From the IMG/VR virus record IMGVR_UViG_3300006051_000001, positions 22,982 through 86,981 of that record: a stretch of 64,000 nucleotides of DNA; one strand, written 5' to 3'. The first letter of the stretch is position 1; each line of letters opens with the position of its first letter. The notes beneath the pieces were generated by a model, which was not told where the DNA came from, did not search any database, and saw only the letters and a list, made by a program, of their open reading frames with translations. This DNA comes from a virus. Shown piece by piece: positions 4,504 to 54,909 of the stretch. The position numbers were made by a program, and so were the translations under genes.

Positions 4504-6684
4504 ATGAATCCATTTGATCCAACCGATCATTTACCTCAAGAGCGCTACACCATTCCGCCGGAGATGGTTCCGATCAGTGGTTTGAACTCTCAATTCAAAT
4601 GTGTCTCTGGTGCCCGTCAGGCAATGTTCACCGGTAACCTGTCCCAAGTATTGATCGTGGATGGCCGTACCCGTAAACGCCAGCAGACTGGGTTGGAACG
4701 TGAGATTGCCAAAGCTACATTTAACCATCAGTTTCCTCGTGAAGCTGTGGTACTGGCAATCATCCCCCGCTTTACATCCCGTAACTTCGGCGATAAGTTC
4801 CAGATCAACCCGTTCGATCTGGTGATCTACGAGGATTGGGAAACGAAAGAACTGGACGTGGTTGAACTCAGCAAGTTTCACGTAATGCACCAGCATTACG
4901 GGTTTGAGTTCGAGTACGATCAGGACGTCTACGACGCCATCACCAAAGGTAAGCGCTTCAAGGCAGGTACTGTAATTGCTCGTTCTCCGGCTGTAACGGA
5001 TGATGGCGACTACATGTACGGTCTGGAAACCAACGTCTGCATGATCTCTGATCCGGCAGGTACTGAAGACGGTGTAAAGATCAGTCAGAGTTATGCCAAG
5101 CGTATTCGCTCGACAGGCTTTGAAAGTCGGATTGCTCGCTTCGGCGGCAGCCATTACCCGATTAACTGGAACGGTAACCTGGAAGAGTACAAACCTATTC
5201 CAGACATCGGTGATTTCATCCAGTCAAACGGTCTGATCTGCGCTTCACGGCCTTTCGATCCAAAGTACGATCCAGTCTACATGACTCGTACTAAGCTGCT
5301 TAAACCGCAGTATGGGTTGGATACACCGCTGTACGGCGTACCTAACGCTCAGGTCGTAGACATCCGAGTCCTTCATAACGATAGGCTGTCTTCCCCGAAA
5401 CTACCTAAGGAAATGACTAAACAGTTCCTGAAGTACTACGAGGCTGACCAAGAGTTCTACACCAAGATCGTTAAGACGTGCCTCTGCCGGAAAGGTAACT
5501 TCCTGGCTGACGACGTTGCAATGTCTCCACGTCTGCGCATCCTCCTGTACGAAGCAATCGCACGTAGCGGTGAGCGTCTGCTGGAAGAAGGCATCTGGCC
5601 GAAGAGCAAAGCCGACCAACTGCGTGTTCGCACGAAGTATCGCGGTGAGATCTTGGATGAGTTCCGTGTGGAAATCATCTATCAGTACAAGACCTCTGTG
5701 GGCGAAGGCCCTAAGGTTACTGACCAATCTGGTGGTAAAGGCGTTACTTCGGCGGTTGCTCCAGACGAAGACATGCCTACTGACGAGAACGGCGTACGCG
5801 CCGACGTAGTGATCTTCTCGAACTCTACGGTAAACCGCCTGAACAACGGTCGTCAGCATACTCAGGTTATCGGCGCTGCTGGTCGTGACATCATCAAACG
5901 TGTACGTAAGTCCTACGGTCTGCCACCTGTTGGCGCGATCGACAAGGCTGAAGTCAAGCGTGTGGTGACGTCTCAGAACAACGTGGCTGTGACCATGAAG
6001 AACTTTGCGTACATCATCGGCTTCTATAAGCTGGTGGCTCCGGCGATGTACGAACGTCTTACTCGCAACGATATCATTCCGCAAGGTATTCACTTGCAGC
6101 ATGTAATCGAAGTGATCATGGACGGTGAAGTTGACCACGGTCTGTTCCTGCAACTCGCTTCCAGTGATGAGGTCTACATGGACCAAGTCATCCGGGAGAT
6201 CGAGGCTGGTCCGTACATGCCAGACTTGACTCCGGTTAAGTATCGGAATCTGGCTGGTGAGATGGTAACTACCAAGACCAAGATCCTGATCGGTCCTGAC
6301 TACTACCTGCCTTTGGAGAAGACGGCTACCGACGGTTCCGGTGTATCGTCCTCCAAGACAAACCACTTCGGCGTTACTGCCCGTCTGACGAATGCTGACA
6401 AGTATTCCAGCCCTGGCCGTGAAACCGTAACCAAATCTACCGGTGAGTCCGAAGCGCGTAACCACGCTCACGCCTACGGTGCTGAGCCCCTTGCTCACAT
6501 CATGGACTTGAACTACAACCCGGTGGTTCACAAAGAAGCCTGTATGACGATCCTCACTCACGAGACACCGACCAACATCGAATGTCTTGTTGACCGTGAG
6601 AAGTTTAAGCTTGGTGGACATCGTCCGCTGGCTTACGTTCGCCACATGATGGCCGTATCTGGTAAGAATATCTCCAGGGAGTAA
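4504..6684 (+). CDS. Non-virion RNA polymerase beta subunit part (phiKZ gp71-73-like), uninterrupted
   Basis: 726 aa; beta motifs SGARQAMFTGNLSQ, EDGVKISQS, KVTDQSGGKGV, RADVVIFSNSTVNRLN and GESEARN. Confidence 0.93.
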   Translation: MNPFDPTDHLPQERYTIPPEMVPISGLNSQFKCVSGARQAMFTGNLSQVLIVDGRTRKRQQTGLEREIAKATFNHQFPREAVVLAIIPRFTSRNFGDKFQINPFDLVIYEDWETKELDVVELSKFHVMHQHYGFEFEYDQDVYDAITKGKRFKAGTVIARSPAVTDDGDYMYGLETNVCMISDPAGTEDGVKISQSYAKRIRSTGFESRIARFGGSHYPINWNGNLEEYKPIPDIGDFIQSNGLICASRPFDPKYDPVYMTRTKLLKPQYGLDTPLYGVPNAQVVDIRVLHNDRLSSPKLPKEMTKQFLKYYEADQEFYTKIVKTCLCRKGNFLADDVAMSPRLRILLYEAIARSGERLLEEGIWPKSKADQLRVRTKYRGEILDEFRVEIIYQYKTSVGEGPKVTDQSGGKGVTSAVAPDEDMPTDENGVRADVVIFSNSTVNRLNNGRQHTQVIGAAGRDIIKRVRKSYGLPPVGAIDKAEVKRVVTSQNNVAVTMKNFAYIIGFYKLVAPAMYERLTRNDIIPQGIHLQHVIEVIMDGEVDHGLFLQLASSDEVYMDQVIREIEAGPYMPDLTPVKYRNLAGEMVTTKTKILIGPDYYLPLEKTATDGSGVSSSKTNHFGVTARLTNADKYSSPGRETVTKSTGESEARNHAHAYGAEPLAHIMDLNYNPVVHKEACMTILTHETPTNIECLVDREKFKLGGHRPLAYVRHMMAVSGKNISRE

Positions 6685-21726: not shown

Positions 21727-21834
21727 AAATCGACTCCTGCCCCAGTGGGTATCATAGCAATTAGAGGAACTGTTAATCGTACAAATTTAATCGCGTGACC
21801 AATGCTTTACAGGAACGTAGATTCGAGGTTAGCA

Positions 21835-23655
21835 ATGAAGAAGTTTCTCACACCAGCAGAGATCGATGTACATCTCGCACACATTCCAAAAGATCAAATT
21901 GTATCCCGTGAGTGCAAGCATGCCACTTACGTTCGTCACCGTGGTGGCGATCAGCAAGACTGTCTGGTGATCAAAGAGTGGGTCACCCTTAAAGACGGTT
22001 CACGGTTCCCACGCGTCAGGATGGTTGAGAACTACAAGCGTCCGTACTGGGTAACGAAAGAACCATTCCGTACTCACCCTGACAAGATTCAGTTCGAAGA
22101 GCTGAAGCGTCTGGACATGTTCCGTGTACCGCAGTGCAAACTGCGTCAAGACATCTGCTTCCGCATTCGTGGGCTGCAACCAAACAACCCAATGAAGGTG
22201 TTGGCTCGCAGTCCTTACTTGTACGGGCTCGACACTGGCCCTGAAGTCTTCATGAAGCAGAGCTACGCCGACAAGTGGCCCAATGCCTTCCAGCCGAACA
22301 GAGTGTCCGTAATCGACGCCGAGACCGACGTGAACGGTCTGCTGCACTCTAAGCTACAGTTGCCGATTCTTTGGTCATTGGTTAGCGATGATGAGATCGT
22401 CCTCTACGTGAACGATACGTGGGCGTTTGACATCGACAACTACGAAGAGCAGATCCACAAAGAATACCAATCGGTAATCGGACAGTGGGCTGCGGCCATC
22501 CGTAAGAAGATGACCAACAAGAAGACTGGCGAGTGTCCTGATTGGGTGGACATGATCGAGAAGATCCCAGTCCGCGTCGAGCGTCTGAAGAATGACTTCG
22601 ACATCACTAAGGGGATGGTCGATCGTCTGCATGAAACACAACCGGATCTGGTAACAGGCTGGAACGTATTCTTCGATGCTAAATGTATCGAGAACTCCGT
22701 AACCAACGCTGGCTACGATTTGGCTGACGTCATGTCTGATCCTCGTGTTCCTTACGAGTGGCGCGGTGCGTTGCTGACTGAAGGTCAGGCTGTTAAACGT
22801 ACGTCGTCTGGACGTGAGATGCGTCTTGATCCGCAAGAACGTTGGAACAAGGTACTCAACACAGCCTCATGGCGCATGCAGGACATGATGCAGCTGTATT
22901 GGCAGTTGCGTAAGGCCAAGGGTAAGGAATCTGGTGGTTACGGCTTAGACGCTGTTCTAGACCGTCAGTTGTCTGTGGGTAAGCTCAAGTACGATACCGA
23001 AGATACTTCGGTGCCGCCTGGGACACTTCACTGGCACATGGACATGCAGCGGAACTACAAGGTTCGCTACGGCGTGTACAACATCATCGACTCCTTGGCA
23101 GTTTGGGCGCTCGATAAGAAGAACCAAGACTTGAGTTCTCAGATCTCATCTCTTGCAGGTCCACTGGATTACTCCAACTTCAACTCGCAGCCGAAGATCA
23201 ACGTCACTGACATGCTCTTCAGCACGATCAAGAAGCTGGGCAAAGTAATCTGCTCCACATCTGATCAAATGGCCGATGAGAACGATGCGCTGCTCTCCGG
23301 TAAGGATGGGTGGATCGTAACCTTCCCAAGCCACATTGTTGCGGATACGGGACTGTTCTTATTTGAGGACATGCCTGAGATCCGATCAATGATCCACATG
23401 TTCAACGCGGATGCTGACGTGGAAACTACGTATCCGATTTCTGAGATCATTCAGAACCTCTCCAGTGAGACGACAATTGCAGAACCTTGTCGTGTGATGG
23501 GTGTAGGGCGTGAAGCACTGCGTCTTGCAAGTATCAACCTTACTGGTGGTCGTGTGAACTCGGTCGAGATTGTGGAATCCATCTGTAAGATGCCGATGTT
23601 CGATGAATGGCTGGAACAAGCTACCATTGACATCGAAGAGATCAAAGCAGCATAA
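21835..23655 (+). CDS. Split family-B DNA polymerase N-terminal subunit: 3'-5' exonuclease plus palm motif A (phiKZ gp82-like)
   Basis: ExoI IDAET, ExoII GWNVFFD, ExoIII YNIID, motif A DVETTYP..I..NLSSET; no motif B or C. GAGG SD favours ATG 21835 over 21802. Confidence 0.85.
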   Translation: MKKFLTPAEIDVHLAHIPKDQIVSRECKHATYVRHRGGDQQDCLVIKEWVTLKDGSRFPRVRMVENYKRPYWVTKEPFRTHPDKIQFEELKRLDMFRVPQCKLRQDICFRIRGLQPNNPMKVLARSPYLYGLDTGPEVFMKQSYADKWPNAFQPNRVSVIDAETDVNGLLHSKLQLPILWSLVSDDEIVLYVNDTWAFDIDNYEEQIHKEYQSVIGQWAAAIRKKMTNKKTGECPDWVDMIEKIPVRVERLKNDFDITKGMVDRLHETQPDLVTGWNVFFDAKCIENSVTNAGYDLADVMSDPRVPYEWRGALLTEGQAVKRTSSGREMRLDPQERWNKVLNTASWRMQDMMQLYWQLRKAKGKESGGYGLDAVLDRQLSVGKLKYDTEDTSVPPGTLHWHMDMQRNYKVRYGVYNIIDSLAVWALDKKNQDLSSQISSLAGPLDYSNFNSQPKINVTDMLFSTIKKLGKVICSTSDQMADENDALLSGKDGWIVTFPSHIVADTGLFLFEDMPEIRSMIHMFNADADVETTYPISEIIQNLSSETTIAEPCRVMGVGREALRLASINLTGGRVNSVEIVESICKMPMFDEWLEQATIDIEEIKAA

Positions 23656-50926: not shown

Positions 50927-52579
50927 ATGTCTTTGAATGAAGTAGATCGTATCCAACACAACCTCTATCAAACACTGATGGAATCCGGTTACCTTAAAGG
51001 CGACCGTACTGGCGTGGGCACTCTCATGCTGCCTGGCCTTGTAATGGACTACGACATCAGCGACAAGAAGATCCCGCTGCCGTCGACCAAAGAAGTCTTC
51101 AACAAGTCGTGGGGCTGGGAGAACCTGATGTTCATCTCGGGTTCCAGCAACCTGAAGCTTCTGAAAGACAACAACGTCTCAATCTGGGACAACTGGTTCA
51201 TTCCGGGCACTGCCGTCTACGACGAACCGAAGCGTGTTGTGTATTCGCTCGATGAGCGTATTCAGGTGGCTGTTGATGCCGGTCATCGCGACATCATCAT
51301 CCAACACATCCTCGAGTACAAGAAGTTCAACGGCAGCATCGGCAGTTACGCGGTTGTTGTGCAGGATGCCGATGGCAATCTGGTCGAATACTTCAACCGC
51401 CCTAAAGCGTATCTCGATGCACTGTGGACCTTCCTCGGTAATCTCGGTATTCCTGAGTACAACGAGAACGGTGGTGGTAAGCCTGTCGGTATCCAGACTC
51501 GACTGAAGCGTGTTGCGAAGAACATGACCCTCTGCTGGCACGAGATCAACAAGATCGTCTTCAACTTCGGTGATGTAGTCGCCCTAGGTGATAAGCCGTA
51601 CAAGGTCGTCGTCTTCCACAAAGGTAAGTTTGTTGACGTCGAGATCAGTTCGACTAAAGTCACCGCTATCAACAAGATCATGGACAACTTCGATATTCCG
51701 AAGTACCCACTTCTGGAAGCTGATATCGGTCAAGGCAGCTACGGCGTGCAATGGCGCCGTTGGCAGGATACTCAGATCGTCAGCAGCGATCAGATCGACG
51801 AGTACGTCGCGCAAGGTTACGAGATCGCCGGTAACCTGACCTCTGATAGTGCGTGGGGTCGTGGGATGCCAGGACCTGTCAAGATGTATCACGTCATGCA
51901 CCGCGAGATCGACCAGTTGCAGAACTGCATCGACATGCTGCGCAAGAACCCTGACGATCGCCGTATGATCGTTAACGCATGGAACCCAGGTCGTACATGG
52001 CAAGCTGCTTTACCTCCATGCCATCTGTACTTCCAGTTCATCAGCTATCCGAAGAAAGCTGGCCAGATCCTCGATGACCTCGAGAAAGCTGGCATGCTGC
52101 AAAGTCTACGCCAAGCAATCAGCGAAGACTACGGCACTCACGTAATCGAGACTGTTCAGTCCTTCGAGAAGAAGTACGAAGAAGATGAAGAGTTCTACGG
52201 TTATGTGAAGCGTTTCTGCGAACACGCTGTAGTTGGCGTTAATCCACGCCTTATCTCGACGCTGATGGTAATGCGCAGCAACGACTACGCTTTGGGTATG
52301 CCGTTCAACGTAGCGCAGTATGCGGCCTTGACGCACATGGTTGCACACGTCACCGGCCATGACACTGACCGTCTGATCATTGTAGGTGGTGATTGCCACC
52401 TGTACGTGAATCAGCTGGAAGGTATCACCAAGCAGTTGGCTCGTGAGTCCAGCGAAGATAGTGATCCTCGGTTCATTATCAAACGCAAGATTGCCGAGAT
52501 TGATGACTTCACTTTCGAGGACTTCAAGATCGAGGGCTACAAACCTCAGCCAAACATCCCAATGCCTGTTGCGGTGTAA
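50927..52579 (+). CDS. thyA: Thymidylate synthase with large insertions
   Basis: DRTGVGT, YGVQWRRW, ALPPCHLYFQF, MRSND, PFN and GDCHLY motifs. Confidence 0.95.
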   Translation: MSLNEVDRIQHNLYQTLMESGYLKGDRTGVGTLMLPGLVMDYDISDKKIPLPSTKEVFNKSWGWENLMFISGSSNLKLLKDNNVSIWDNWFIPGTAVYDEPKRVVYSLDERIQVAVDAGHRDIIIQHILEYKKFNGSIGSYAVVVQDADGNLVEYFNRPKAYLDALWTFLGNLGIPEYNENGGGKPVGIQTRLKRVAKNMTLCWHEINKIVFNFGDVVALGDKPYKVVVFHKGKFVDVEISSTKVTAINKIMDNFDIPKYPLLEADIGQGSYGVQWRRWQDTQIVSSDQIDEYVAQGYEIAGNLTSDSAWGRGMPGPVKMYHVMHREIDQLQNCIDMLRKNPDDRRMIVNAWNPGRTWQAALPPCHLYFQFISYPKKAGQILDDLEKAGMLQSLRQAISEDYGTHVIETVQSFEKKYEEDEEFYGYVKRFCEHAVVGVNPRLISTLMVMRSNDYALGMPFNVAQYAALTHMVAHVTGHDTDRLIIVGGDCHLYVNQLEGITKQLARESSEDSDPRFIIKRKIAEIDDFTFEDFKIEGYKPQPNIPMPVAV

Positions 52580-52584
52580 CGGCC

Positions 52585-52962
52585 ATGATCCATTATCGTG
52601 AGTATTGGCCAGCGTTTATAGATATCGCTAGAGCGCCCATTGAGGGAGATGTTGAAACTCTCGATGACGTACTGGACATTGCTTTCATCAGGGAACGTAC
52701 GGTACGGGGTGAGGTCACCTGTAAGTACGCCTTGAGTCCACACGGCACTCATGGGCATTTGTTGCGCGAGTACAACAAGGATGAGTGGTGGGTATGCGCC
52801 ACTCTCTCGTCTGATGTAGATCTCGTTCCAACTGACAAGATCCCGCTCTGGGTAGCTCCTCCCAAGGTAACTATCCCGATCGAACCACCTAAGGAACTAG
52901 GACCTCCTGTTCCTCTGGATGATCTCTTCGCAAGCGGTGTCGTTAAACGGACCGTTCGTTGA
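52585..52962 (+). CDS. Hypothetical protein with Pro-rich C-terminus
   Basis: 125 aa. Confidence 0.65.
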   Translation: MIHYREYWPAFIDIARAPIEGDVETLDDVLDIAFIRERTVRGEVTCKYALSPHGTHGHLLREYNKDEWWVCATLSSDVDLVPTDKIPLWVAPPKVTIPIEPPKELGPPVPLDDLFASGVVKRTVR

Positions 52963-53153
52963 GCGGTAAGGCGCCGCATCCAATCGATGACCCTGAGATA
53001 AGGTTTAAAGCCAAACTCTTAGGGTTCACCGATGAAGCTCTCGAATCCATACGCGACTCACAACTGAAAGCCTGTCTAGCGTGCCAGTTAGTCGGGAAGA
53101 AGAAGTGTGTTCGCGTATGTCAAGCGATGCGGAATAGGAATGAACTCGAATGA
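52959..53153 (+). CDS. Small Cys-rich hypothetical protein
   Basis: CLAC...CVRVC; overlaps both neighbours. Confidence 0.55.
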   Translation: MSGKAPHPIDDPEIRFKAKLLGFTDEALESIRDSQLKACLACQLVGKKKCVRVCQAMRNRNELE

Positions 53154-53989
53154 ACCAACAACCGTTTACCCTTGACGGAATGGCTTTCTATAAACTCTGG
53201 AGAGAGAAACGCGATCAAGGCGCTCCATCGTACACACTCGACTCTATCACTAACTTCGCCCAACCAGGTAAGGTTGAGTATAAGCTAGACTACGAGAACC
53301 TAGAGAAACATAAAGCTGACTACAGCGCCTACCATGAAGCAGATGCTGAAATAACTGAACGTGCTGCTAGGTTCCGTGAAACAAACCCCAACGCAACATT
53401 CATCGAAGCACTCACCCATTTACTACCCGGAGTAAGATTCATGACCAAAGAAACATTTCAATCACCAAAACCAAAAGACATCATCGACCTGTCGGACGAG
53501 TTCCGGATGACCCTGATCCCAAACTCGGATGAAATCCCGGTGGCTCACGTAGCCACCATCACCACCATCGAAGAACTGTGCGAAGATCGTACAGATGTCC
53601 TGAACGTCTTCCCAGTTCAGGCTGCCTTCACTATCGACAAACGCCTTGACGGCGAGTGGGTTCAGTTGCAAGAAGCTGACTTCACGGAAACCATGTACGG
53701 CACCCTGAAACCGTTGATCGAAGCTGAGCATCGCCGTGGCTGTGAAGCTCACGGCACTGCGTTCGATCAGCGCATGACCCCTGAATACGTCCACGTCCCA
53801 ATCATCGGCCACCGCAAACATGCGGCTGAACTGATGGCGAGTCTGTCCAACAACCGTGGCAATGTCGGCGGTCACCTCAGCGTGCAGCTCGATCCAAACG
53901 ATCCAGATCCACTGATGTCCAAGAAGGCTCAGATCTTCACTGACGCGCCAATTGAACAAACCGAATACCCGGCGAAGCCAGCCGAGTAA
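53150..53989 (+). CDS. Chimeric protein: PolB exonuclease fragment, unknown domain, RNAP bridge-helix peptide
   Basis: Matches to 22882-23091 and 7430-7474 within this window; internal GGAG SD with in-frame ATG at 53441. Confidence 0.7.
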   Translation: MNQQPFTLDGMAFYKLWREKRDQGAPSYTLDSITNFAQPGKVEYKLDYENLEKHKADYSAYHEADAEITERAARFRETNPNATFIEALTHLLPGVRFMTKETFQSPKPKDIIDLSDEFRMTLIPNSDEIPVAHVATITTIEELCEDRTDVLNVFPVQAAFTIDKRLDGEWVQLQEADFTETMYGTLKPLIEAEHRRGCEAHGTAFDQRMTPEYVHVPIIGHRKHAAELMASLSNNRGNVGGHLSVQLDPNDPDPLMSKKAQIFTDAPIEQTEYPAKPAE

Positions 53990-54001
53990 TCACATCGAGT
54001 G

Positions 54002-54021
54002 CGCCGGGGAATTCCCCGGCG
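54002..54021 (+). terminator. GC hairpin
   Basis: CGCCGGGG-AATT-CCCCGGCG with a T-tract about 12 nt downstream. Confidence 0.65.
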
Positions 54022-54075
54022 TAACTATCAACCTTTTTTGCTTACCCTATAGAACCAATTTCTTATCGGAGCTTC

Positions 54076-54288
54076 ATGATGTTGCGAGCATTTCTCTTTG
54101 TTGTAATCGGCGCTGCTGCTGGAAGTGCCATTCAAGCCTCTATCCACAAACCTACTGTCCAACTTAATGACGCTGCCAAACGAATGGCTGACTGTGTTGA
54201 GAAGGACAGCGTCGGCGTTATCGGCCCTGCTGAACTGAACAACGTTTATAAGCTCTGCTGGAACCACGCCACAATAACCAAGCGATAA
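54076..54288 (+). CDS. Small exported or membrane-anchored protein
   Basis: N-terminal hydrophobic signal; two Cys. Confidence 0.65.
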   Translation: MMLRAFLFVVIGAAAGSAIQASIHKPTVQLNDAAKRMADCVEKDSVGVIGPAELNNVYKLCWNHATITKR

Positions 54289-54297
54289 GGATAACCC

Positions 54298-54909
54298 ATG
54301 CGTTACGGACAAGAACCACAAGTAATCGGCGAATTCCCTATCGACTTGGTTAAGGCTAAGGTCGAGATGTGTTTCGTGCAATATCTCCCGATTTTCATGC
54401 CGGGTATGGATCGCGTGTTCATCCCAAAGAACCTGAACTGGATTCGCCCACTGGTACGTCAGATTCCATGGGAAGAAGAGACGTCGTATGTCTACGTCTC
54501 AGTGAAACACCTGTTCGTTACTCCTGACAACATGGGTAACCGCCCAGGCTGGCATTCGGATGGCTTCGGCACAGATGACCTCAACTACATCTGGACTGAC
54601 CACTTCCCAACCGAGTTCTCCATTCAGGACTTCGAGCTGAGCGAAGATCACCACCTGTCTCTGATCGAACTGGAGCAGCAAGTTAAGCCTGAGAGTATCC
54701 GCACTTACGGCGAGAACAAGCTGGTGCGTCTGGATAAGTACAACATCCACCGCCCGCCGGTTCAGGACAAGTCTGGCTTCCGTACTTTCGTGAAGATCTC
54801 GGTCTCCAAAGAACGATACAACCTGCAAGGTAATGCTCACAACGACCTGATCGATTATGATTGGGAGATGAAGCCTCGTGACGCTATCCGCAATCCTACG
54901 TCGGCATGA
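54298..54909 (+). CDS. 2OG-Fe(II) dioxygenase-fold protein
   Basis: RPGWHSD (HxD), distal IHRPP His, RTFVKIS Arg. Confidence 0.7.
   Translation: MRYGQEPQVIGEFPIDLVKAKVEMCFVQYLPIFMPGMDRVFIPKNLNWIRPLVRQIPWEEETSYVYVSVKHLFVTPDNMGNRPGWHSDGFGTDDLNYIWTDHFPTEFSIQDFELSEDHHLSLIELEQQVKPESIRTYGENKLVRLDKYNIHRPPVQDKSGFRTFVKISVSKERYNLQGNAHNDLIDYDWEMKPRDAIRNPTSA

What the first reader, a model, noticed from the sequence alone, without database searches (positions are those of the whole stretch)
53150..53440. Fragment of the phage's own PolB exonuclease fused to an accessory gene
Seen: DGMAFYKLWREKRDQGAPSYTLDSI aligns ungapped with DMMQLYWQLRKAKGKESGGYGLDAV (from 22882; 7/25 identical). GKVEY matches GKLKY and YSAYHEAD matches YGVYNIID (ExoIII Y and D kept); ExoI and ExoII are absent. 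The segment is A-richer and ends at an internal GGAG SD plus in-frame ATG 53441, suggesting a recent fusion or two start sites.
Basis: partly seen in the sequence, partly recalled or inferred. Interest (0 to 1): 0.65.

Follow-up and report, generated by a model that had tools for sequence, protein, structure and literature searches.

The report
Polymerase-like mini-gene fused to neighbour
In this uncultured soil giant phage, a small gene that probably descends from a piece of a DNA polymerase proofreading domain has become joined in frame to the next gene by a one-base change; this is a modest evolutionary curiosity, and no function has been shown.

Summary

**The fusion idea holds.**
- In five related contigs (L001, L003, L011, L012, L015), residues 1-97 are a separate 127-aa ORF in another frame. 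It overlaps the downstream gene, which starts exactly at the window's internal ATG 53441.
- The window and contig L004 have a ribosome-binding-site-to-ATG spacer one base shorter, which puts the two in frame.
- The upstream piece is a real gene: dN/dS is 0.19-0.35 among the unfused lineages.

**The PolB idea holds only in part.**
- The literal 7/25 identity is at chance level, and BLASTP, Pfam and PDB searches find nothing.
- Profile tests recover the same alignment (residues 7-66 to PolB 359-431) at about P 1e-3.
- A PolB ExoIII-region HMM ranks this ORF second only to PolB among 1,056 window ORFs (E 0.001).
- ESM features also point to PolB-exo clusters.
- The match is to a distant chimallivirus PolB clade, not the phage's own. 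There is no nucleotide similarity, so it is not a recent self-copy.
- ExoI and ExoII are absent, so it cannot be catalytic.

**The rest.** The C-part belongs to a small uncharacterised family of phiKZ-like phages (Noxifer homolog). Related notes of this scan concern this same window, none other DNA. Interest is moderate to low.

The parts
53150..53440 (+). N-part: residues 1-97 of the 279-aa ORF. In relatives it is a separate small gene. It is a putative non-catalytic relic of a family-B polymerase proofreading domain.
   Evidence: It is a separate 127-aa ORF in L001, L003, L011, L012 and L015. dN/dS is 0.19-0.35, with an excess of third-position changes, among the unfused lineages. A content is 33.3%.
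53168..53347 (+). Residues 7-66: the stretch that aligns with PolB residues 359-431. It carries a (S/T)Lx2h-like TLDSI, a Kx2h KVEY and an ExoIII Y61..D65.
   Evidence: hhalign gives P 5.4e-4. 0 of 300 column shuffles reach the score. It is the best of 151 real 97-aa fragments. The reciprocal HMM gives E 0.0011 to 0.018 among 1,056 ORFs.
53429..53432 (+). GGAG ribosome-binding site of the downstream gene, lying inside the fused ORF.
   Evidence: It is invariant in all relatives (L015). The 8-nt spacing is within this phage's usual 6-10 nt.
53433..53440 (+). 8-nt spacer. Relatives have 9 nt here. This one-base difference puts the N-part in frame with the downstream gene.
   Evidence: The alignment shows GGAGTAA-GATTCATG in the window and L004 against GGAGTAACAATCCATG in L001, L002, L003 and L015.
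53441..53989 (+). C-part: a 182-aa gene with its own start. It is a conserved small protein of phiKZ-like jumbo phages with a variable tail.
   Evidence: Homologs P0004 and P0005 start at this Met. Stand-alone ~130-aa homologs P0007-P0010 exist. AF2 pLDDT is about 90 for residues 10-125. Foldseek hits a Pseudomonas phage Noxifer protein, E 1.3e-7, TM 0.71.
52959..53153 (+). Upstream 64-aa ORF. Its stop overlaps the N-part's ATG (ATGA), so the two are probably translationally coupled.
   Evidence: Read from the sequence. It is 95-96% nt-identical to relatives. It shows no PolB similarity.

Best explanation
**Setting.** The locus is a two-gene cassette of a chimallivirus-like (phiKZ-like) soil jumbo phage.

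**Gene 1, the N-part.**
- It encodes a small, mostly helical protein under purifying selection.
- It most likely descends from the C-terminal helical half of a family-B DNA polymerase 3'-5' exonuclease domain.
- It keeps counterparts of the ssDNA-ligand motif, the auxiliary lysine (Kx2h) and ExoIII (Yx3D), in the right order.
- It lacks ExoI and ExoII, so it holds one of the four catalytic carboxylates and cannot be a nuclease.
- It is an old, diverged fragment whose best match is a PolB clade other than the phage's own. It is not a recent self-copy.

**Gene 2, the C-part.** It is a member of an uncharacterised ~130-aa alpha/beta protein family of phiKZ-like phages and has its own GGAG and ATG.

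**The fusion.**
- In most relatives, gene 1 reads on in another frame for about 29 codons into gene 2.
- In this lineage the GGAG-ATG spacer is one base shorter, so gene 1 runs in frame into gene 2 and a 279-aa ORF results.
- The internal start is intact, so both a 279-aa fusion and the 182-aa protein are probably made.

**What is shown and what is inferred.**
- Shown: the anatomy, the separate ORFs in relatives, the one-base frame change, selection on gene 1, and family membership of gene 2.
- Inferred: PolB ancestry (about 0.65), two products, and that gene 1 acts by binding (ssDNA ends or a protein partner) rather than by catalysis.
For: **Fusion.**
- P0004 and P0005 begin at M98.
- Separate, overlapping ORFs are seen in L001, L011, L012 and L015.
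- The one-base spacer difference is seen.
- The fused frame is also present in contig L004.

**Coding status.** dN/dS is 0.19-0.35 with an excess of third-position changes among unfused lineages.

**PolB ancestry.**
- 0 of 300 column shuffles reach that score.
- P is 5e-4 to 7e-4 against a distant PolB clade.
- None of 150 real 97-aa fragments of other window proteins reaches the score.
- An HMM of the PolB ExoIII region ranks this ORF second after PolB among 1,056 six-frame ORFs, at E 0.0011 (distant clade) and 0.018 (all sequences). 18 control HMMs of other PolB segments find nothing better than E 0.23.
- A profile of the relatives alone, without the window, still hits the same region: P 0.009, 2 of 250 shuffles.
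- The PolB-invariant residues M363, R370, Y380, L382, K394, Y423, Y426 and D430 all face identical residues of the window's N-part.
- ESM-feature neighbours with a family name are mostly PF03104, as leads only.
- The roles of Kx2hxA and ExoIII are described in PMC4974454.

**C-part.**
Against: **On PolB ancestry.**
- hhalign probability is only 12-33%. BLASTP, Pfam, a PDB hmmsearch and phmmer against 1.8 billion proteins give no polymerase hit.
- The signal rests largely on the window's own variant: 15-18 bits against 3-7 bits for relatives. Adding the L015 variant did not strengthen it. This is what selection of a lucky variant would look like.
- The relatives replace SYTL with MLTI or SFTF.
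- The N-part lacks the WH..MQ segment that is invariant in chimallivirus PolBs.
- No confident structure model exists for residues 1-97 (pLDDT below 50).

**On the fusion.**
- The window and L004 are nearly identical, so nothing shows that the fused frame is kept by selection.
- The window lineage's N-part evolves faster (pairwise dN/dS 0.44-0.56).
- No expression data exist.
Confidence: 0.55

Rival explanations
1. Chance resemblance. The N-part is a lineage-specific small helical protein unrelated to polymerases, and the PolB-like motifs are coincidental. The fusion story is unchanged.
For: - The pairwise identity is at chance level.
- There is no hit by BLASTP, Pfam, PDB or exhaustive phmmer.
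- hhalign probability is at most 33%.
- Relatives score much lower than the window's variant.
- The finding was picked by eye from many windows, so a P of about 1e-3 can arise by selection.
Against: - Three methods converge on the same PolB stretch.
- This ORF is the only non-PolB hit among 1,056 ORFs, while 18 control HMMs find nothing.
- The relatives alone still hit the same region at P about 0.005-0.01.
- All eight aligned PolB-invariant positions match.
Confidence: 0.3
2. One reading: a recent partial duplication of the phage's own PolB (DNAP-N) exonuclease region, pasted in front of an accessory gene.
For: The aligned region and motifs are those of the phage's PolB.
Against: - There is no nucleotide similarity.
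- The score is insignificant against the phage's own PolB (P 0.15-0.23) and its own clade (P 0.07, HMM E 17), but better against a distant clade.
- The N-part exists in at least four diverged lineages at 54-69% identity, so it is old.
- The spacing from the lysine to ExoIII is 20 residues against 32 in the phage's own PolB.
Confidence: 0.03
3. The N-part (alone or fused) is a functional mimic or decoy of the polymerase proofreading domain. It would titrate a host sensor or a polymerase partner. In this lineage it is joined to a protein whose tail was reported to mimic the RNA polymerase bridge helix.
For: - The N-part is under purifying selection.
- It retains surface and motif residues without any catalytic capacity.
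- Hosts do sense phage DNA polymerases: Avs19 senses family-A polymerases (PMC13581612).
- Earlier notes e1-5349041 and e1-5349042 propose this idea.
Against: - There is no partner, no defence-gene context and no structure.
- The sensor known so far recognises family-A polymerases, not family B.
- In most relatives the two supposed mimic pieces sit on different proteins.
- PolB ancestry itself is only moderately supported.
Confidence: 0.1
4. The in-frame state is an assembly or sequencing error, and the true genome has the two-ORF arrangement of the relatives.
For: A single-base length difference decides the frame, and metagenome assemblies do carry indel errors.
Against: - The site is not a homopolymer, and the flanking bases differ as well (GATTC against CAATCC).
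- A separate JGI contig (L004) has the same junction.
- Logan contigs from other soil runs lie across 53407-53746 and 53323-53446 without gaps. These have short flanks, so they are weak support.
Confidence: 0.03

Closest known systems
Exonuclease domain of chimallivirus DNA polymerase subunit DNAP-N (phiKZ gp82; family B, DEDDy; PMC13648687)
   Same: Residues 7-66 align with the stretch from after ExoII to ExoIII. They match the PolB-invariant M, R, Y, L, K, Y, Y and D positions, including the auxiliary Lys and the ExoIII Tyr and Asp.
   Different: - Only about 60 of some 250 exonuclease-domain residues are present.
- ExoI, ExoII, the beta-sheet core and the conserved WH..MQ loop are missing.
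- It is not detectable by BLASTP or Pfam.
- It is a stand-alone 97- to 127-aa ORF far from polB, and cannot be catalytic.
phi29 DNA polymerase exonuclease motifs Kx2hxA and ExoIII (PMC4974454)
   Same: The order Lys..Tyr-x3-Asp is the same. The spacing is similar: K41 to D65 is 24 residues, against K143 to D169, 26 residues, in phi29.
   Different: In phi29 these residues work together with the ExoI and ExoII carboxylates on the same domain. Here those are absent.
Uncharacterised ~130-aa protein of Pseudomonas phage Noxifer (UniProt A0A1Y0T3F0) and metagenomic homologs P0007-P0010
   Same: The C-part core (residues ~106-232 of the ORF) is homologous by sequence (E 4e-6 to 3e-19) and by predicted fold (E 1.3e-7, TM 0.71).
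   Different: Those proteins stand alone and have no N-part gene upstream. The window's protein carries a 97-aa N-terminal extension and a longer variable tail.
Rosetta-stone type gene fusions and adjacent phage genes merged by a frame change
   Same: Two ORFs that are separate in relatives form one ORF here through a one-base length change. The internal start signals are retained.
   Different: In the unfused relatives the upstream ORF overlaps the downstream gene by 86-89 nt, an unusually long overlap. Nothing yet shows that the two products interact.

Membership tests
Family-B DNA polymerase 3'-5' exonuclease domain (DEDDy; Pfam PF03104) | ExoI motif (DxE, two catalytic carboxylates) | tested here: not met
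   The alignment begins at PolB residue 359, and there is no DxE in residues 1-97. The upstream ORFs (64 aa and 125 aa) give no significant PolB match.
Family-B DNA polymerase 3'-5' exonuclease domain (DEDDy; Pfam PF03104) | ExoII motif (N-x2-3-[FY]-D) | tested here: not met
   PolB N288/D292 has no counterpart. ExoII-region HMMs do not hit this locus.
Family-B DNA polymerase 3'-5' exonuclease domain (DEDDy; Pfam PF03104) | ExoIII motif (Y-x3-D) | tested here: met
   Y61 and D65 are invariant in all six N-part variants and align with PolB Y426 and D430.
Family-B DNA polymerase 3'-5' exonuclease domain (DEDDy; Pfam PF03104) | Kx2h(xA) auxiliary lysine, specific to family B | tested here: met
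   K41-V-E-Y44 is invariant for K and Y and aligns with K394..Y397. The motif is defined in PMC4974454. The trailing Ala is not present, nor is it in the phage's own PolB.
Family-B DNA polymerase 3'-5' exonuclease domain (DEDDy; Pfam PF03104) | Statistically significant profile match to the domain | tested here: inconclusive
   - hhalign gives P 5e-4 to 3e-3 but probability only 10-33%.
- The in-window HMM gives E 0.001-0.018.
- Pfam gives no hit, but PF03104 scores only 13.8 bits on the phage's real PolB.
Family-B DNA polymerase 3'-5' exonuclease domain (DEDDy; Pfam PF03104) | RNase H-like fold, or the helical sub-part of it | tested here: inconclusive
   The AF2 model of residues 1-97 has pLDDT below 50. 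Only its helical character (H10-22, H30-36, H48-78, H84-91) is compatible.
Recent paralog of the resident polB (DNAP-N) gene | Nucleotide similarity, and closest protein similarity to the phage's own PolB clade | tested here: not met
   blastn finds only chance 8-16-mers. The phage's own PolB gives P 0.15-0.23 and its own clade P 0.07 (HMM E 17), against a distant clade at P 5e-4 (HMM E 0.001).
Small alpha/beta protein family of phiKZ-like jumbo phages (Noxifer A0A1Y0T3F0-like), for the C-part | Sequence and fold homology over the ~120-aa core | tested here: met
   phmmer gives E 4e-6 to 3e-19 to P0007-P0010. The conserved W, D.T, L.PL and VH.P..GHRK positions are in the alignment. Foldseek against BFVD gives E 1.3e-7, TM 0.71.
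Gene fusion by frame change | Separate ORFs in relatives and one continuous ORF here, in more than one assembly | tested here: met
   Unfused in L001, L002, L003, L011, L012 and L015. Fused in the window and L004.
Gene fusion by frame change | The fused polypeptide is actually made | not testable with these tools
   No RNA or proteome data exist for this uncultured phage (one search lists no RNA holder).

The most novel reading that the evidence does not exclude
The N-part is an exapted splinter of a polymerase proofreading domain, kept because it mimics a surface of the phage replicase. It would act as a decoy for a host sensor or as a competitor for a replisome partner. In this lineage it has been welded onto a protein whose tail independently mimics the RNA polymerase bridge helix, giving a single polypeptide that carries two mimics of core enzymes.
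Probability: 0.08. Interest if true: 0.8.

Novelty: new variant of a known kind. Interest (0 to 1): 0.35.

Why it matters
- **If the ancestry is right,** this would be a case of a roughly 60-residue piece of a core replication enzyme surviving as an independent, selected small gene in giant phages. It would be raw material for the idea that phages recycle pieces of their own machinery as binding modules or decoys.
- **The locus is a clean natural example** of how one base in the spacer between ribosome-binding site and ATG toggles between two overlapping genes and a fusion protein. This is useful for annotating jumbo-phage ORFs. Gene callers here called either a 279-aa protein or only the downstream gene, and often missed the upstream ORF.
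- **If the resemblance is chance,** the finding reduces to an ordinary fusion of two hypothetical genes.

Tried and rejected
**Searches that found nothing**
- Pfam and PHROGs on the whole protein and on each half gave no family, apart from a PHROG of unknown function at E 0.07.
- blastn and tblastn against 50,697 phage records gave no match.
- A PDB hmmsearch with the N-part profile gave nothing at E up to 10.
- Rfam on 52400-54300 gave nothing.
- The promoter and terminator scan gave nothing beyond chance.
- The N-part HMM over the whole 188-kb record finds only itself.

**Structure and binding**
- AF2 of the whole 279-aa protein gave pLDDT 42 and was unusable.
- Complex prediction of the C-part core with the N-part gave no verdict (score 0.01), so it is evidence neither way.

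**Is the rest of the locus also PolB-derived?**
- C-part against PolB gave P 0.6.
- The 64-aa ORF gave P 0.5-0.8.
- The 125-aa ORF has a short YxxxWP.AF...D.ET look-alike of the pre-ExoI region at P 0.049, but ExoI HMMs do not find it. All were rejected as chance.

**A link to an intron or homing endonuclease**
- The two-piece tblastn match in phage 201phi2-1 polB turned out to be one continuous CDS with an insertion. The idea was dropped.

**Other contigs and runs**
- The 255-kb Logan contig carrying a 96%-identical PolB could not be searched, because the record is not held.
- No RNA holder was listed for the locus.
- Laid Logan contigs are short pieces. They are compatible with the fused junction in other soil runs but bridge it with fewer than 31 letters on one side.
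- One listed substitution (53303 G>T) would create a stop in one variant if the rest of the codon is unchanged. The table was truncated, so this was not interpreted.

**Null control**
- ORF 4504..6684 gave the highest null score against the PolB profile (27.0). It is an RNA polymerase beta piece, so it is a true null.

Full report
**What is there.** The window lies in a 188-kb IMG/VR virus record. The record's PolB-like gene, 21802..23655 (617 aa, phrog_3011), is 32-38% identical to the DNA polymerases of phiKZ-like phages (pPa_SNUABM_DT01, 201phi2-1, RP12, Erwinia phages). It ends shortly after polymerase motif A, so it corresponds to the DNAP-N subunit of the split chimallivirus polymerase (phiKZ gp82; PMC13648687).

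The finding concerns ORF 53150..53989 (+, 279 aa).
- Its ATG overlaps the stop of a 64-aa ORF (ATGA).
- An internal GGAG (53429-53432), an 8-nt spacer and the in-frame ATG 53441 precede residue 98.
- The segment is A-rich: 33.3%, the 99th percentile of 291-nt windows.

**The fusion.** Homolog searches split the protein exactly at Met98.
- P0004 (179 aa) and P0005 (156 aa) start there. Only P0003, from contig L004, is full length, and it is 94% identical.
- An exhaustive phmmer search found a separate 127-aa protein for residues 4-97 (P0006). It also found stand-alone ~130-aa proteins for residues ~106-232 (P0007-P0010).
- In contigs L001, L002, L003, L011, L012 and L015 the N-part is an ORF of its own. 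It reads in another frame 86-89 nt into the downstream gene.
- The junction is GGAGTAACAATCCATG in these contigs and GGAGTAAGATTCATG in the window and L004. One base fewer puts the two genes in frame.
- More distant loci that carry the C-part family (L006-L009) have no N-part upstream.

The independent start of the C-part is therefore ancestral. The N-part is a lineage-specific upstream gene. The in-frame state is confined to the window's lineage, against three diverged unfused lineages, so it is most simply derived. The internal start signals are untouched, so a 279-aa and a 182-aa product are both plausible. Nothing could be tested about expression.

**Is the N-part a gene?** Yes. Among the unfused lineages dN/dS is 0.19-0.35, and substitutions pile up at third codon positions (for example 5, 6 and 18). 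Comparisons that include the window give dN/dS 0.44-0.56 with near-equal changes at all three codon positions. The fused lineage's copy has therefore evolved faster at the protein level.

**Is it a PolB exonuclease fragment?** As a pairwise observation, no.
- A 7/25 identity is reached by 179 of 200 shuffles.
- BLASTP does not see it.
- Pfam, PHROGs, a PDB hmmsearch and phmmer over 1.8 billion proteins return no polymerase.

At profile level the picture changes.
- None of 300 column shuffles reaches that score: 29.8 against a mean of 14.1, sd 2.5, maximum 25.0.
- None of 150 real 97-aa fragments from the window's other proteins reaches it either. The margin is marginal against the whole PolB profile (27.2 against 27.0) but clear against the distant clade (31.7 against 22.5).
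- In the reverse direction, an HMM of PolB residues 352-441 was searched against all 1,056 six-frame ORFs of the window. It ranks this ORF directly after PolB, at E 0.0011 (distant-clade HMM) or 0.018 (all sequences), with the next ORF at E 2 or worse.
- Eighteen control HMMs made from other PolB segments find nothing better than E 0.23.
- A profile made from the relatives alone, without the window's sequence, still hits the same region: P 0.009, 2 of 250 shuffles.
- Eleven residues in that stretch are invariant across the PolB family. Three (H412, M415, Q416) lie in a loop that the N-part lacks. The other eight (M363, R370, Y380, L382, K394, Y423, Y426, D430) all face identical residues.
- These eight include the family-B-specific auxiliary lysine (Kx2h) and the ExoIII Tyr and Asp. 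Their roles are described for phi29 polymerase in PMC4974454.
- A language-model feature search of residues 1-97 gives PF03104 (PolB exonuclease) clusters as most of its named neighbours, at scores (0.75-0.83) that count only as leads.

Several points weigh against ancestry.
- The hhalign probabilities are low.
- The window's variant carries most of the signal, at 15-18 bits against 3-7 bits for relatives. The relatives have MLTI or SFTF where the window has SYTL.
- Adding the L015 variant did not raise the score.
- No confident structure could be obtained.

I put true descent from a PolB exonuclease domain at about 0.65.

**Not the phage's own PolB.**
- The score is insignificant against the resident PolB alone (P 0.15-0.23). 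It is weak against its clade (P 0.07; HMM E 17). It is best against a distant chimallivirus-type clade, P0077-P0087 (39% identity over 36 columns).
- There is no nucleotide similarity.
- The spacing from the lysine to ExoIII is 20 residues against 32.
- The fragment exists in at least four lineages that are only 54-69% identical to one another.

If it is PolB-derived, it is old or came from another polymerase. With ExoI and ExoII absent, and no PolB similarity in the neighbouring ORFs or in the C-part, it holds one of the four catalytic carboxylates and cannot be a nuclease.

**The C-part.**
- With ten sequences, AF2 gives a confident alpha/beta core (pLDDT about 90 for residues 10-125 of the C-part) followed by a disordered, indel-rich tail.
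- Its only clear structural relative is an uncharacterised 133-aa protein of the phiKZ-like Pseudomonas phage Noxifer (E 1.3e-7, TM 0.71).
- PDB and Atlas searches give no convincing fold.
- Its function remains unknown.
I did not test that.

**How it most likely works.**
- *Shown:* a translationally coupled chain (64-aa ORF, then the N-part, then the C-part), in which the N-part's 3' end holds the C-part's ribosome-binding site. A one-base spacer length decides whether the N-part ends in a ~29-residue out-of-frame tail or continues into the whole C-part. The N-part's C-terminal continuation differs completely between lineages while its core is conserved, so what follows residue ~95 seems not to matter much. 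This makes the fusion a tolerated, possibly neutral, variant.
- *Inferred:* the N-part acts as a non-catalytic binding module. A decoy or mimic role is conceivable, since host Avs19 senses phage family-A polymerases (PMC13581612), but it is unsupported here.

**Verdict.** The fusion reading is right. The PolB reading is plausible but unproven, and wrong about 'own'. This is a new variant of known phenomena (domain-fragment genes and frame-toggle fusions) and is of moderate to low interest unless the mimic idea is borne out.

Noticed in passing
window 52585-52962: The 125-aa ORF between thyA and the 64-aa ORF is absent from contig L004, where the thyA stop directly abuts the 64-aa ORF. L004 is otherwise 95-100% identical over 51200-53700. 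This is a presence/absence polymorphism of a small gene between near-identical phages. The gene is only 60-70% identical to its copies in L001, L011 and L012.
   Followed up: partly
window 52959-53153: The 64-aa ORF carries CxxC..CxxxC cysteines and is 95-96% nt-identical to relatives, while both neighbouring genes are 55-75% identical. It is chained to its neighbours by TTGA and ATGA overlaps. In L015 the TTG start reads CTG. It matches no family and no Rfam model.
   Followed up: partly
window 50927-52579: The thymidylate synthase is 550 aa. Its Pfam match is split in two stretches around an insert of about 250 aa. Parts of the insert (51300-51500 and about 51800) are the most variable stretches of the gene among relatives, at 54-67% identity against about 90% elsewhere.
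   Followed up: no
window 53840-53989: The C-part tail is indel-rich. A ~25-residue NNRGN...DPNDPDPL segment is present in the window, L004 and P0004, shorter in L012, and absent in L001, L011 and L015. The last ~15 residues (KIFTD.P.EQ.EY) are conserved.
   Followed up: no
L012 2501-3305: This is a mosaic locus. Its N-part is of the L011 type (2 amino-acid differences), while its C-part is closer to the window's. That implies recombination at or near the gene junction.
   Followed up: partly
window 54002-54039: A perfect 8-bp GC-rich hairpin (CGCCGGGG AATT CCCCGGCG) lies just after the stop of the C-part, followed 12 nt later by a run of six T. It is probably the terminator of this gene chain. 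The simple scan missed it because of the distance to the T run.
   Followed up: no
window 21802-23655: The PolB-like gene stops shortly after polymerase motif A (DVETTYP, about residues 539-545). It is therefore the DNAP-N half of a split chimallivirus-type polymerase. The DNAP-C half was not located in the window.
   Followed up: no
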